From Escherichia coli (lineage in GTDB: Bacteria > Pseudomonadota > Gammaproteobacteria > Enterobacterales > Enterobacteriaceae), in NCBI RefSeq assembly GCF_041886205.1, contig NZ_CP169029.1: DNA of 64,000 nt. One strand, written 5' to 3'. Shown in pieces: positions 52,881 through 55,285 of the stretch. The translations under genes were made by a program, and so were the position numbers. How positions within the stretch are numbered: position 1 is the stretch's first letter; each line of letters starts with the position of its first letter. A model generated the notes under the pieces. It had not been told where the DNA came from, ran no database searches, and saw only the letters and a program-made list of their open reading frames with translations.

Positions 52881-54641
52881 TTGACCATTACGAAACTTGC
52901 ATGGCGTGACCTGGTTCCTGATACCGATAGCTATCAGGAAATATTTGCTCAGCCACATTTGATTGACGAAAACGATCCTTTATTCAGTGATACTCAACCG
53001 CGGCTGCAATTCGCACTGGAGCAGTTGCTGCATACGCGAGCATCCTCCTCTTTTATGCTGGCGAAGGCCCCGGAAGAGTCTGAGTATCTGAATCTTATTG
53101 CCGATGCCGCGCGTACGCTACAAAGCGATGCAGGCCAACTCGTGGGCGGTCACTATGAGGTTTCCGGCCACTCCATCCGCTTACGTCACGCAGTGAGTGC
53201 AGATGATAATTTTGCGACTTTAACGCAAGTTGTCGCTGCCGACTGGGTAGAAGCGGAGCAACTCTTTGGCTGCCTGCGCCAGTTTAATGGCGACATTACC
53301 CTGCAGCCTGGTCTGGTGCATCAGGCAAATGGCGGTATTCTCATCATCTCTTTGCGTACACTGCTGGCGCAACCTCTGCTGTGGATGCGGCTGAAAAATA
53401 TCGTTAACCGCGAGCGTTTTGACTGGGTTGCGTTTGATGAGTCGCGCCCTCTCCCCGTCTCTGTGCCTTCGATGCCATTGAAGCTGAAAGTCATTCTGGT
53501 AGGCGAACGCGAATCATTGGCTGATTTCCAGGAGATGGAGCCAGAGCTTTCAGAGCAGGCTATTTATAGCGAATTTGAAGATACTCTGCAGATTGTCGAT
53601 GCGGAGTCAGTAAGCCAGTGGTGTCGCTGGGTGACATTTACCGCCAGACATAATCACTTACCTGCACCGGGAGCGGATGCCTGGCCGGTACTTATCCGCG
53701 AAGCAGTACGCTACACCGGTGAACAAGAAACACTTCCGCTTAGCCCGCAGTGGATCCTCCGCCAGTGTAAAGAGGTCGCCTCCCTGTGTGATGGCGACAC
53801 CTTCTCCGGCGAGCAGCTAAACTTAATGCTGCAGCAGCGTGAATGGCGCGAAGGTTTCCTCGCTGAACGTATGCAGGATGAGATCCTTCAGGAGCAAATC
53901 CTGATTGAAACCGAAGGCGAACGCATCGGGCAAATTAACGCCCTTTCGGTCATTGAATTTCCGGGTCATCCACGCGCTTTTGGCGAACCTTCTCGCATTA
54001 GCTGCGTTGTGCATATTGGCGATGGTGAATTCACCGACATCGAACGCAAAGCGGAGCTTGGCGGCAATATCCATGCGAAAGGGATGATGATCATGCAGGC
54101 GTTCCTGATGTCGGAACTACAGCTTGAGCAACAGATCCCCTTCTCAGCATCGCTGACATTTGAGCAGTCATACAGTGAAGTGGATGGCGATAGTGCCTCG
54201 ATGGCTGAACTCTGCGCCCTGATAAGCGCCCTCGCCGATGTGCCGGTGAATCAGAGTATCGCTATCACAGGTTCAGTCGATCAGTTCGGTCGTGCCCAGC
54301 CGGTCGGTGGTTTAAATGAGAAAATCGAAGGCTTCTTTGCTATTTGCCAGCAACGTGAGTTAACCGGGAAACAAGGTGTCATTATCCCCACTGCTAACGT
54401 TCGCCATTTAAGTCTTCACAGTGAACTGGTGAAAGCGGTAGAAGAAGGCAAATTCACCATCTGGGCAGTAGACGATGTGACTGACGCACTGCCGTTATTA
54501 TTAAATCTGGTGTGGGATGGCGAAGGCCAAACGACGCTGATGCAAACCATCCAGGAACGTATCGCGCAAGCATCGCAACAGGAAGGACGTCACCGTTTTC
54601 CATGGCCATTACGTTGGCTGAACTGGTTTATTCCGAACTGA
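52881..54641 (+). CDS. ycbZ: YcbZ (LonH), Lon protease homologue
   Basis: 586 aa; Lon-like protease domain. Confidence 0.85.
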
Positions 54642-54671
54642 TCGGACTTGTTCAGCGTACACGTGTTAGCT
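54636..54671 (+). promoter_or_regulatory. fabA promoter FadR site and FabR palindrome
   Basis: AACTGATCGGACTTGTT (54636-54652) and AGCGTACACGTGTTAGCT (54654-54671). Confidence 0.75.
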
Positions 54672-54709
54672 ATCCTGCGTGCTTCAATAAAATAAGGCTT
54701 ACAGAGAAC

Positions 54710-55228
54710 ATGGTAGATAAACGCGAATCCTATACAAAAGAAGACCTTCTTGCCTCTGGTCGCGGTGAACTGTTTGGCGCTAAAGGCCCGCAATTGCCAG
54801 CACCGAATATGCTGATGATGGACCGTGTGGTCAAAATGACCGAAACGGGTGGTAACTTCGACAAAGGGTATGTTGAAGCAGAACTGGATATCAATCCGGA
54901 TCTGTGGTTCTTCGGATGCCACTTCATTGGCGATCCGGTTATGCCGGGATGCCTGGGCCTGGACGCAATGTGGCAGCTGGTAGGGTTCTACCTCGGCTGG
55001 CTGGGCGGCGAAGGTAAAGGCCGCGCGCTGGGCGTTGGCGAAGTGAAATTCACTGGTCAGGTACTGCCGACAGCGAAAAAAGTGACCTACCGTATTCACT
55101 TTAAACGCATTGTTAATCGTCGTCTGATTATGGGTCTGGCAGATGGCGAAGTGCTGGTTGATGGTCGTCTGATCTATACCGCCAGCGACCTGAAAGTCGG
55201 TCTGTTCCAGGATACGTCTGCCTTCTGA
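54710..55228 (+). CDS. fabA: FabA, beta-hydroxydecanoyl-ACP dehydratase/isomerase
   Basis: ORF 54512..55228; start at [10 protein letters not shown]. Confidence 0.95.
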
Positions 55229-55256
55229 TTATAATCAGACAGAGTATCAAAAGGCG

Positions 55257-55285
55257 AAACCTCCGCAATGCGGAGGTTTCTTTTT
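55257..55285. terminator. Bidirectional terminator between fabA and rmf
   Basis: AAACCTCCGCAATGCGGAGGTTTCTTTTT. Confidence 0.85.

What the first reader, a model, noticed from the sequence alone, without database searches (positions are those of the whole stretch)
54636..54671. Adjacent FadR and FabR operators in the fabA promoter overlap the end of ycbZ
AACTGATCGGACTTGTT (FadR-type) sits next to the near-palindrome AGCGTACACGTGTTAGCT (FabR-type). The ycbZ stop codon at 54639-54641 falls inside the FadR site, so ycbZ read-through transcription or translation could interfere with fabA regulation.
Basis: partly seen in the sequence, partly recalled or inferred. Interest (0 to 1): 0.25.

Follow-up and report, generated by a model that had tools for sequence, protein, structure and literature searches.

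The report
fabA promoter operators overlapping ycbZ end
These are the textbook FadR activator and FabR repressor binding sites of the E. coli fabA (unsaturated fatty acid) promoter; the FadR site does contain the last codon and stop codon of the upstream gene ycbZ, an old and conserved arrangement, but nothing shows that ycbZ expression disturbs fabA control.

Summary
Observation confirmed exactly. AACTGATCGGACTTGTT is at 54636-54652, AGCGTACACGTGTTAGCT at 54654-54671, and the ycbZ TGA at 54639-54641. Both sites are already known: a published EMSA probe for E. coli fabA equals window 54627-54682 with the same two boxes marked. Only the FadR site overlaps ycbZ, by 6 nt (AAC TGA).

The TGA belongs to the operator, because fabB carries the same CTGATCGGACTTGTT core. 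The layout is ancestral. A YcbZ homolog precedes fabA in 78 of 79 loci from Enterobacterales, Pasteurellaceae and Vibrio. The stop is TGA at the same offset in 44 of 54 loci that keep both operators.

No terminator or mapped 3' end separates ycbZ from fabA, and RNA-seq work describes a ycbZ-fabA operon. Upstream transcripts, including those from a CpxR-dependent start inside ycbZ, raise fabA mRNA even without FadR and FabR. They therefore bypass the operators rather than interfere.

One link is not trivial. A cryo-EM-validated ribosome stall sits at YcbZ Pro585/Asn586, on the first operator bases. The stall residues are poorly conserved (13 of 78 loci) and no conserved RNA structure links the stall to the fabA ribosome-binding site. 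Verdict: already known, low interest.

The parts
52881..54641 (+). ycbZ coding sequence (586 aa, Lon-like putative protease), including the TGA stop
   Evidence: ORF list. Pfam AAA_32 and Lon_C. Annotated as ycbZ in 5425 E. coli genomes and in K-12 as b0955.
54423..54455 (+). Published CpxR footprint (-287 to -255 from the fabA ATG) containing the CpxR box GTAGAagaagGCAAA at 54438-54452, inside ycbZ
   Evidence: Xu et al. 2020, PMC7083825. Coordinates and sequence verified in the window.
54496..54507 (+). Acid/CpxR-dependent fabA promoter S3: -10-like TATTAT at 54496-54501 and published start 203 nt upstream of the ATG (54507), inside ycbZ
   Evidence: PMC7083825. Hexamer and position verified. 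Assigning this hexamer as the -10 is my inference.
54633..54638 (+). ycbZ codons Pro585 (CCG, P site) and Asn586 (AAC, A site) of the published ribosome stall; AAC is bases 1-3 of the FadR 17-mer
   Evidence: Fujita et al. 2022, PMC8848927. Codons read from the window.
54639..54641 (+). ycbZ stop codon TGA, bases 4-6 of the FadR 17-mer
   Evidence: Same offset and codon in 44 of 54 loci that keep both operators.
54636..54652 (.). FadR operator (activator site) of fabA, AACTGATCGGACTTGTT
   Evidence: Exact match. Marked as the FadR site in the published probe fabA_ec-BD-F. Two mismatches to the consensus aaCTGGTCnGACC(T/A)Gtt. Core invariant at 12 of 13 positions in 38 species.
54648..54653 (+). 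-35-like hexamer TTGTTC of the FadR-dependent promoter, inside the right half of the FadR site
   Evidence: Lies 17 bp upstream of the conserved -10. T54648, T54649 and G54650 are invariant. The assignment is my inference.
54654..54671 (.). FabR operator (repressor palindrome), AGCGTACACGTGTTAGCT
   Evidence: Exact match. Palindrome confirmed. Marked as the FabR palindrome in the published probe. Contains the core ACAnnTGTnnnnT. Mean identity 0.94 in 38 species.
54671..54676 (+). -10 hexamer TATCCT (TAnnnT) of the FadR-dependent promoter; its first base is the last base of the FabR palindrome
   Evidence: T54671, A54672 and T54676 are invariant while the three middle bases vary. Inference: the start site would lie near 54683-54686, which puts the FadR centre (54644) at about -40.
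54693..54697 (+). fabA Shine-Dalgarno sequence (TAAGG)
   Evidence: Mean identity 0.97.
54710..55228 (+). fabA coding sequence (172 aa, 3-hydroxydecanoyl-ACP dehydratase/isomerase)
   Evidence: Pfam FabA, E = 4.8e-53.
55256..55285 (.). Bidirectional intrinsic terminator shared by fabA (+) and convergent rmf (-)
   Evidence: 11-bp stem with T-runs on both strands. Term-seq 3' ends at K-12 1015897(-), which is window 55283, and at 1015926/7(+), which is window 55253/4.

Best explanation
Window 54636-54671 is the known control region of the E. coli fabA promoter. A FadR dimer (GntR family) that is free of long-chain acyl-CoA binds the 17-bp site centred about 40 bp upstream of the FadR-dependent start and helps RNA polymerase use a weak promoter (TTGTTC, 17 bp, TATCCT). 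Acyl-CoA releases FadR and activation is lost. One base further on, the 18-bp FabR (TetR family) palindrome fills the -35/-10 spacer and touches the -10, so FabR bound to it represses. This promoter is built into the 3' end of ycbZ: the first six bases of the FadR site are the last sense codon and stop of ycbZ (AAC TGA). The TGA is an intrinsic part of the operator, since fabB has the same CTGATCGGACTTGTT core, and ycbZ simply terminates on it. The layout is ancestral to Enterobacterales and is also seen in Vibrio and some Pasteurellaceae. No terminator separates the genes, so transcripts from the ycbZ promoter and from the CpxR-dependent S3 promoter inside ycbZ run across both operators into fabA. 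They add fabA mRNA that does not depend on FadR or FabR (a bypass) rather than perturbing regulation. Shown: site identity, overlap, conservation, absence of a terminator. Taken from the literature: binding, activation and repression, the ycbZ-fabA operon, S3 and CpxR. Inferred: exact promoter geometry, the bypass reading, and the view that the ribosome stall at Pro585/Asn586 is a by-product of codons that the operator imposes on YcbZ.
For: The published E. coli fabA EMSA probe equals window 54627-54682 with the same FadR and FabR boxes. FadR activates and FabR represses fabA and fabB. fabA starts S1 (FadR) and S2 (FabR), plus S3 at -203 with a CpxR footprint at -287 to -255, all map to the window. 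[quoted passage not shown] The fabB probe has the same core and is found in 5425 genomes. On the footprint, the FadR core is 12 of 13 invariant, FabR identity is 0.94, the -10 T-A-n-n-n-T is invariant, and ycbZ third codon positions average 0.61. YcbZ lies upstream in 78 of 79 loci, and TGA is at +3 in 44 of 54 loci with both operators. No terminator is present and no curated 3' end lies at the junction. A ycbZ-fabA operon is described.
Against: No experiment that separates ycbZ transcription from fabA regulation was found, so 'bypass, not interference' is an inference from the CpxR/S3 data and from ectopic fusions. The exact S1 and S2 coordinates are in papers that are not held, so the -35/-10 assignment rests on conservation and on my memory of the '-40 region'. 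The level of ycbZ read-through relative to S1 is unknown to me. A match to the FadR consensus alone is not above chance in this window. Alignment A1 was chosen from loci that keep the layout, so TGA invariance there is by construction.
Confidence: 0.85

Rival explanations
1. Transcriptional interference. RNA polymerases reading through from ycbZ sweep FadR and FabR off their sites or occlude the fabA promoter, so ycbZ expression modulates fabA regulation.
For: There is no terminator or hairpin with a U-tract between the genes and no Term-seq 3' end at the junction. A ycbZ-fabA operon with promoters upstream of and inside ycbZ is described. The operators lie directly in the path of those polymerases.
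Against: Turning on the upstream S3 promoter through CpxR increases fabA mRNA and protein, and still does so without FadR and FabR. A fabA promoter fragment moved to the lambda attachment site keeps FadR activation and FabR repression (this is the Shewanella fragment, and the E. coli equivalent is only from my memory of Feng & Cronan 2009). No paper in the library links fabA with transcriptional interference.
Confidence: 0.08
2. Regulatory ribosome arrest. The strong stall at YcbZ Pro585/Asn586 acts like SecM, TnaC or MifM and controls fabA on the ycbZ-fabA read-through mRNA, through mRNA remodelling, protection or cleavage at collided ribosomes.
For: The stall is validated by monosome and disome profiling, iNP, a reporter assay, cryo-EM (PDB 7CPJ) and tRNA-seq, and is stronger than SecM Pro166. 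It lies 74 nt upstream of the fabA ATG on a co-transcript. ycbZ-fabA synteny is conserved. YcbZ protein and fabA mRNA both rise in a queuosine-less tgt mutant, which lacks a modification of tRNA-Asn; this is weak and indirect.
Against: The residues essential for the stall, Pro-Asn-stop, occur in only 13 of 78 loci. No conserved RNA structure connects the stall site to the fabA SD or AUG: consensus energy -9.4 kcal/mol, covariation term -0.06, no compensatory pairs. The single-sequence fold has z = -1.7. The main fabA transcripts start downstream of the stall site and never contain it. The 68-nt spacer is short for Rho action. The stall paper reports that the ycbZ 3' UTR is not needed and never mentions fabA.
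Confidence: 0.06
3. Chance resemblance. The two motifs are not functional operators at this position.
For: The FadR core consensus at 2 or fewer mismatches is as frequent as chance in the window.
Against: The sequence is identical to the published binding probe. The two boxes sit next to each other in the same 1-bp-gap arrangement as at fabB and at Shewanella fabA. They are near-invariant across 38 species while neighbouring coding positions drift.
Confidence: 0.01

Closest known systems
E. coli fabA promoter as published (FadR site: Henry & Cronan 1991/1992; FabR palindrome: McCue 2001, Zhang 2002, Feng & Cronan 2009/2011; CpxR/S3: Xu et al. 2020)
   Same: It is this locus. The probe fabA_ec-BD-F equals window 54627-54682 with both boxes. 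The CpxR box and S3 map to 54438-54452 and 54507.
   Different: Nothing differs in sequence. The accessible papers do not comment that the FadR box contains the ycbZ stop codon and the stalled Asn586 codon.
E. coli fabB promoter (FadR site followed by a FabR palindrome)
   Same: It has the same 15-nt FadR core CTGATCGGACTTGTT and the same order of FadR site then FabR palindrome (GGCTGATCGGACTTGTT C GGCGTACAAGTGTACGCT).
   Different: The fabB site lies in DNA with no annotated feature, so its TGA is not used as a stop codon. Its first three bases are GGC rather than AAC.
Shewanella oneidensis fabA promoter (Protein Cell 2015, PMC4537474)
   Same: It has a FadR box, one base, then a FabR palindrome (AGCTGATCGGAGTTGTT T AGCTTACACGTGTTCGCT), and it is activated by FadR and repressed by FabR in E. 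coli.
   Different: A TAG sits immediately before the box (AAT TAG CTGATC...). Whether that is the stop of a ycbZ homolog was not tested here.
Arrest-peptide control of a downstream gene (SecM-secA, TnaC-tnaA, MifM-yidC2)
   Same: A nascent-chain-dependent ribosome stall occurs at the very end of an upstream ORF that is co-transcribed with a downstream gene.
   Different: No conserved stall residues and no RBS-sequestering or conserved RNA structure. The downstream gene has its own main promoter downstream of the stall site. No effect on fabA has been shown.
Promoter occlusion or transcriptional interference between tandem promoters
   Same: Co-directional upstream promoters send polymerases across a regulated downstream promoter with no intervening terminator.
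   Different: The available data show added, not reduced, fabA expression when the upstream promoter is on.

Membership tests
FadR operator (E. coli FadR regulon) | 17-bp site matching the consensus aaCTGGTCnGACC(T/A)Gtt | tested here: met
   AACTGATCGGACTTGTT differs at 2 of the 16 specified positions (consensus). The core match alone is not above chance in 64 kb.
FadR operator (E. coli FadR regulon) | Demonstrated FadR binding to this sequence | tested here: met
   The test here is by identity only. The published FadR/FabR gel-shift probe fabA_ec-BD-F equals window 54627-54682. The binding itself is a literature result and was not re-measured.
FadR operator (E. coli FadR regulon) | Position suited to activation (at or upstream of the -35, not over the start site) | tested here: met
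   The site centre (54644) lies about 40 bp upstream of the start inferred from the invariant -10 at 54671-54676. The review states that activating FadR sites lie upstream of the -35 region.
FadR operator (E. coli FadR regulon) | Conservation beyond the neutral level in related genomes | tested here: met
   The core is invariant at 12 of 13 positions in 38 species, against 0.61 identity at adjacent ycbZ third codon positions. The site is recognisable in 54 of 79 loci.
FabR operator | 18-bp imperfect palindrome with the core ACAnnTGTnnnnT | tested here: met
   AGCGTACACGTGTTAGCT has 7 of 9 symmetric pairs. The core is as defined in PMC4804515. A core at 2 or fewer mismatches is present in 74 of 79 loci.
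FabR operator | Lies immediately downstream of the FadR site, over the promoter spacer and -10, as at fabB | tested here: met
   There is a 1-bp gap to the FadR site. The last base of the palindrome is the first base of the invariant -10. fabB and Shewanella fabA have the same order.
FabR operator | FabR occupancy in vivo and ligand-dependent repression | not testable with these tools
   Literature only: ChIP-qPCR in Salmonella and derepression in fabR mutants.
   No + strand terminator-like site lies between 52940 and 55256. The fold of 54590-54715 has z = -1.7 and no U-tract. Term-seq supplement 1 has no ycbZ entry. Low ycbZ expression could hide a weak end.
Regulatory arrest peptide (SecM/TnaC/MifM type) | Validated, sequence-specific ribosome stall near the ORF end | tested here: met
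   Literature result: Pro585/Asn586, cryo-EM structure 7CPJ. Codons located at 54633-54638.
Regulatory arrest peptide (SecM/TnaC/MifM type) | Stall-critical residues conserved among orthologs | tested here: not met
   Pro-Asn-stop occurs in 13 of 78 loci. Asn is last in 34 of 78. An RW[LIMFV] motif (includes E. coli W579-L580) is present in the 12-residue tail of 58 of 78 loci.
Regulatory arrest peptide (SecM/TnaC/MifM type) | mRNA element (RBS-sequestering helix or rut site) whose state depends on the stalled ribosome | tested here: not met
   RNAalifold on 38 species gives -9.4 kcal/mol, a covariation term of -0.06 and no compensatory pairs, with no pair touching the SD or AUG.
Regulatory arrest peptide (SecM/TnaC/MifM type) | Downstream gene expression depends on the stall | not tested
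   No data were found. The stall paper never mentions fabA.
Transcriptional interference between tandem promoters | Activity of the upstream promoter lowers output or regulation of the downstream promoter | not testable with these tools
   The only relevant data point the other way: CpxR/S3 activation raises fabA mRNA.

The most novel reading that the evidence does not exclude
The exceptionally strong ribosome arrest at the end of YcbZ (Pro585/Asn586) sits on the RNA copy of the first bases of the FadR operator, and it may be functionally tied to fabA. Stalled or collided ribosomes on ycbZ-fabA read-through mRNA could alter the stability, processing or translation of the fabA part, giving unsaturated fatty acid synthesis an input from translation status or tRNA-Asn. 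A weaker form of this reading is that the FadR operator's sequence requirement (AAC TGA) is what creates the arrest, a case where a DNA operator dictates a translational pause in the overlapping gene.
Probability: 0.1. Interest if true: 0.6.

Novelty: already known. Interest (0 to 1): 0.22.

Why it matters
As a discovery it matters little, because these are textbook operators. Three practical points follow.

1. The last ~290 bp of ycbZ carry fabA control elements: the CpxR box, the S3 promoter and part of the FadR site. ycbZ deletions, IS insertions and polar alleles may therefore change fabA expression in cis. ycbZ loss-of-function is a recurrent route to erythromycin and multidrug resistance, and ycbZ mutants are reported to affect stop-codon read-through. 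Those phenotypes should be checked for a fabA or membrane-lipid contribution.

2. The final sense codon (AAC in Enterobacteriaceae) and the stop codon of YcbZ are positions 1-6 of the FadR operator. This gives a simple reason why the stall-critical Asn586-UGA context exists in Escherichia and close relatives.

3. The ycbZ-fabA pairing and the operator/stop overlap are conserved from Vibrio to Escherichia. This offers a genomic-context clue for the uncharacterised YcbZ protein.

Tried and rejected
- I looked for a terminator or stable RNA structure at the junction and found none.
- I tested a SecM-like conserved RNA switch between the stall site and the fabA RBS on 38 species. There was no covariation and no pairs at the SD or AUG, so I rejected it.
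- I tested conservation of the stall residues. They are poorly conserved, which argues against an ancient regulatory arrest.
- I tested whether the FadR consensus alone singles out the site. It does not, so the call rests on identity with the published probe and on conservation.
- I tested whether a second palindrome (CTGGTTnAACCAG) in the YcbZ tail replaces the canonical FadR site where that site has decayed. Fisher p = 0.19, so this is not supported.
- I tried to read the primary papers for exact S1/S2 coordinates and footprints: Feng & Cronan 2009 and 2011, Zhu 2009, McCue 2001, Campbell & Cronan 2001. None is held. No supplement is held for Conway 2014.
- A search for fabA plus 'transcriptional interference' returned nothing relevant.
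- My first script mis-called the ycbZ stop in Photorhabdus and Pectobacterium betavasculorum, because tblastn aligned through a stop codon. This was corrected.
Full report
WHAT IS THERE. The window around the finding is the E. coli chromosomal segment matP - ycbZ - fabA - rmf. The stretch 54200-55300 matches 5425 of 5426 complete E. coli genomes and is annotated there as ycbZ, fabA and rmf. In K-12 these genes are b0955, b0954 and b0953. ycbZ is the ORF at 52881-54641, 586 aa, with Pfam LonB-like AAA and Lon_C domains. fabA is at 54710-55228, with Pfam FabA at E = 4.8e-53.

AACTGATCGGACTTGTT is at 54636-54652 and AGCGTACACGTGTTAGCT at 54654-54671, separated by C54653. ycbZ ends ...ATT CCG AAC TGA, with TGA at 54639-54641. 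Only the FadR site overlaps ycbZ, by six bases. The FabR palindrome starts 13 nt after the stop.

IS IT MORE THAN CHANCE. Each string is unique in the 64 kb even at 3 or fewer mismatches, with chance expectations of 0.13 and 0.02. The second string is a true overlapping palindrome. A match to the published FadR core consensus alone is not distinctive: CTGGTCnGACCWG at 2 or fewer mismatches gives 6 hits against 6.4 expected (consensus from PMC9329746).

The identification therefore rests on three other things. First, the sequence is identical to material used in experiments. The gel-shift probe fabA_ec-BD-F of PMC4537474 equals window 54627-54682, with the same FadR and FabR boxes marked. Second, the position relative to fabA fits. 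Third, conservation is strong. The 80 nt at 54615-54694 are at least 99% identical in 5371 of 5425 E. coli genomes. In an alignment of 38 Enterobacterales species, the FadR core 54638-54650 is invariant at 12 of 13 positions and the FabR 18-mer averages 0.94 identity. The ycbZ codons just upstream average 0.75, and 0.61 at third positions. That alignment was drawn from loci that keep the layout, so the invariance of TGA itself is by construction. The invariance of the rest of the core is not.

HOW THE PROMOTER IS BUILT. The alignment shows an invariant T-A-n-n-n-T at 54671-54676 (TATCCT) and an invariant TTG at 54648-54650 (TTGTTC), 17 bp apart. This is a weak sigma-70 promoter, below the threshold of the consensus scan, as expected for one that needs an activator.

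On this reading, which is my inference, the start lies near 54683-54686 and the FadR site is centred at about -40. Its right half overlaps the -35. The FabR palindrome fills the spacer and touches the -10. That agrees with what I recall of Henry & Cronan 1992 ('-40 region') and Feng & Cronan 2009, but those papers are not held. The accessible literature states that FadR activates and FabR represses fabA and fabB. It also states that fabA has start S1 (FadR-activated) and start S2 (FabR-repressed).

THE fabA CONTROL REGION REACHES DEEP INTO ycbZ. Xu et al. 2020 (PMC7083825) mapped a third start, S3, 203 nt upstream of the ATG. They also footprinted CpxR at -287 to -255, with the box GTAGAagaagGCAAA at -272 to -258. 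In the window these are 54507 (preceded by TATTAT at 54496-54501), 54423-54455 and 54438-54452, all inside ycbZ. The overlap of fabA regulatory DNA with ycbZ coding sequence is therefore already in the literature, though not commented on as such.

THE STOP CODON BELONGS TO THE OPERATOR. The fabB promoter carries the same 15-nt core CTGATCGGACTTGTT followed by its FabR palindrome, in DNA with no annotated feature. The TGA is thus a feature of this activator-type FadR site and not something shaped by ycbZ. In the ycbZ reading frame the operator supplies the only stop. If that stop were read through, the protein would gain 17 residues before a TAA at 54693-54695.

THE LAYOUT IS OLD. I anchored on FabA protein, so the sample is not biased towards loci that keep the operators, and fetched 80 species-representative loci. 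A YcbZ homolog (36-96% identity) lies directly upstream on the same strand in 78 of 79 analysable loci. These span Enterobacteriaceae, Erwiniaceae, Pectobacteriaceae, Yersiniaceae, Hafniaceae, Budviciaceae, Morganellaceae, Pasteurellaceae and Vibrio. A FabR-type palindrome is recognisable in 74 of 79 loci. Both operators with the 1-bp gap are recognisable in 54 of 79. Among those 54, the ycbZ stop is TGA at offset +3 of the FadR 17-mer in 44, as in the window. That set includes Vibrio penaeicida.

Other lineages differ. In the other two Vibrio loci the stop is a TAG three bases before the site. In Photorhabdus, Providencia and Morganella it lies 11-23 nt upstream. In Erwinia, Pantoea, Tatumella and Rosenbergiella the FadR site has decayed but the stop stays at the same offset as TAA. 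The last sense codon is AAC throughout the Enterobacteriaceae and GGC or AGC elsewhere. These are positions 1-3 of the 17-mer, and fabB has GGC there.

READ-THROUGH TRANSCRIPTION: REAL, BUT IT ADDS RATHER THAN INTERFERES. No + strand terminator-like site lies between 52940 and 55256. The RNA fold of 54590-54715 is unremarkable, with z = -1.7 and no U-tract. Curated Term-seq 3' ends (Adams et al. 2021) include the fabA/rmf bidirectional terminator (window 55283 and 55253/4) but no end at the junction. Low ycbZ expression could hide a weak one.

Conway et al. [quoted passage not shown] So polymerases do cross the operators. The only functional data I found point to bypass. [quoted passage not shown] A fabA promoter fragment (Shewanella's) moved to the lambda attachment site keeps FadR activation, FabR repression and the oleate response. 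No paper in the library connects fabA with transcriptional interference. Interference is therefore possible in principle but unsupported. I give it about 0.08.

TRANSLATION: AN UNEXPECTED COINCIDENCE. Ribosomes cannot touch DNA-bound regulators. However, Fujita et al. 2022 (PMC8848927) found one of the strongest ribosome pauses in E. coli, with Pro585 in the P site and Asn586 in the A site of ycbZ, 'just before the stop codon'. It is stronger than SecM Pro166 and was validated by nascent-chain profiling, reporters, cryo-EM (7CPJ) and tRNA-seq. P585 and N586 are essential, W579/L580 contribute, and the 3' UTR is dispensable. Those codons are at 54633-54638, and AAC is the first triplet of the FadR 17-mer. 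That paper never mentions fabA.

On read-through mRNA the stalled ribosome would sit 74 nt upstream of the fabA ATG. I tested two predictions of a SecM- or TnaC-like regulatory role. The first was conservation of the stall residues: Pro-Asn-stop occurs in only 13 of 78 loci. The second was a conserved RNA structure linking the stall site to the fabA ribosome-binding site: there is none, with consensus energy -9.4 kcal/mol, covariation term -0.06, no compensatory pairs and no pair at the SD or AUG. In addition, the main fabA transcripts start downstream of the stall site. I therefore rate a regulatory arrest at about 0.06. I prefer the reading that the operator fixes the final YcbZ codon and its stop (AAC TGA in Enterobacteriaceae), and that the stall, which also needs the variable Pro585, is a lineage-specific by-product. 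This is inference.

COMPARISON WITH WHAT IS KNOWN, AND NOVELTY. The feature is the published fabA promoter, so its category is 'already known'. Its closest relatives are the fabB promoter and the Shewanella fabA promoter, which have the same order of boxes. I could not find three things stated in the accessible literature: that the FadR box contains the ycbZ stop and the stalled Asn586 codon; how deeply conserved that overlap and the ycbZ-fabA pairing are; and the resulting caution for ycbZ genetics. ycbZ loss-of-function alleles (SNVs, indels, structural variants) recur under erythromycin selection and give multidrug cross-resistance. ycbZ mutants are also reported to increase stop-codon read-through. 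Because the last ~290 bp of ycbZ carry fabA control elements, cis effects on fabA should be excluded for such alleles.

VERDICT. The feature is already known, and I score interest at 0.22. The most novel reading that remains open is a functional tie between the YcbZ terminal ribosome arrest and fabA or its operator, with probability about 0.1.

Noticed in passing
L029, L031, L034, L040, L042, L044, L046, L054, L056, L062 and others, 12-13 nt upstream of the fabA FadR 17-mer; window 54623-54635 (degenerate): A perfect palindrome CTGGTTnAACCAG, two symmetric changes from the FadR core, lies about 14-15 bp upstream of the canonical site in 25 of 78 loci at 1 or fewer mismatches. Usually it encodes the YcbZ tail N-W-F-N-Q/H. 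In Pectobacterium and Brenneria ycbZ stops earlier and the palindrome persists in non-coding DNA, which suggests selection at the DNA level. In Pasteurella bettyae (L059) the same motif directly abuts the FabR palindrome. There is no significant anticorrelation with decay of the canonical site (Fisher p = 0.19). E. coli has 3 mismatches.
   Followed up: partly
window 54624 (- strand); K-12 1016556 (+): Adams et al. 2021 list a Rho-dependent termination region antisense to ycbZ at this position (score 3.4, p = 6e-5). [quoted passage not shown] Convergent transcription may matter more for interference at fabA than ycbZ read-through does.
   Followed up: partly
window 54633-54638 (ycbZ Pro585/Asn586): In a queuosine-deficient tgt mutant, YcbZ is among the most increased proteins (log2 1.06) and fabA mRNA is up 0.69 (PMC9508795). 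Queuosine modifies tRNA-Asn(GUU), and the accommodation of that tRNA is proposed to limit the ycbZ stall. The coincidence was not examined further.
   Followed up: no
window 52881-54641 (ycbZ), especially 54423-54641: ycbZ loss-of-function mutations recur under erythromycin selection and confer multidrug cross-resistance (PMC7686311, PMC4079197). The 3' ~290 bp of ycbZ contain the fabA CpxR box, the S3 promoter and part of the FadR site, so deletions, IS insertions or cassette read-through could change fabA expression in cis. The positions of the reported mutations were not checked.
   Followed up: no
L033, L039, L041, L054, L056, L058, L066 (Erwiniaceae); L029, L031, L032, L034, L048 (Pectobacteriaceae): These lineages keep the FabR palindrome upstream of fabA but have lost a recognisable canonical FadR site (5 or more mismatches in most). 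In Erwiniaceae the ycbZ stop remains at the same offset but as TAA (CTGATC has become TTAATC or TTAACC). This suggests that FadR activation of fabA was lost or moved in these families.
   Followed up: partly
window 55256-55285: A bidirectional intrinsic terminator is shared by the convergent genes fabA and rmf: an 11-bp stem with 7 G-C pairs and T-runs on both strands. Term-seq 3' ends fall at window 55283 (+) and 55253/4 (-).
   Followed up: yes
L074 and L080 (Haemophilus haemolyticus, H. seminalis), about 130-175 nt upstream of fabA: Two FabR-like palindromes are present upstream of fabA: AGCGAACATTTGTTCGCT next to the ycbZ-homolog stop, and a second one about 45 nt downstream preceded by a FadR-like site (GACTGCTCCGACAAGTT or CACTGATCCGACTAGTT).
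   Followed up: no
E. coli genome collection: Four matches to the ycbZ-fabA junction lie on records typed as plasmids, and one of 5426 complete genomes has no match although fabA is considered essential. These are probably assembly or replicon-typing quirks and were not examined.
   Followed up: no
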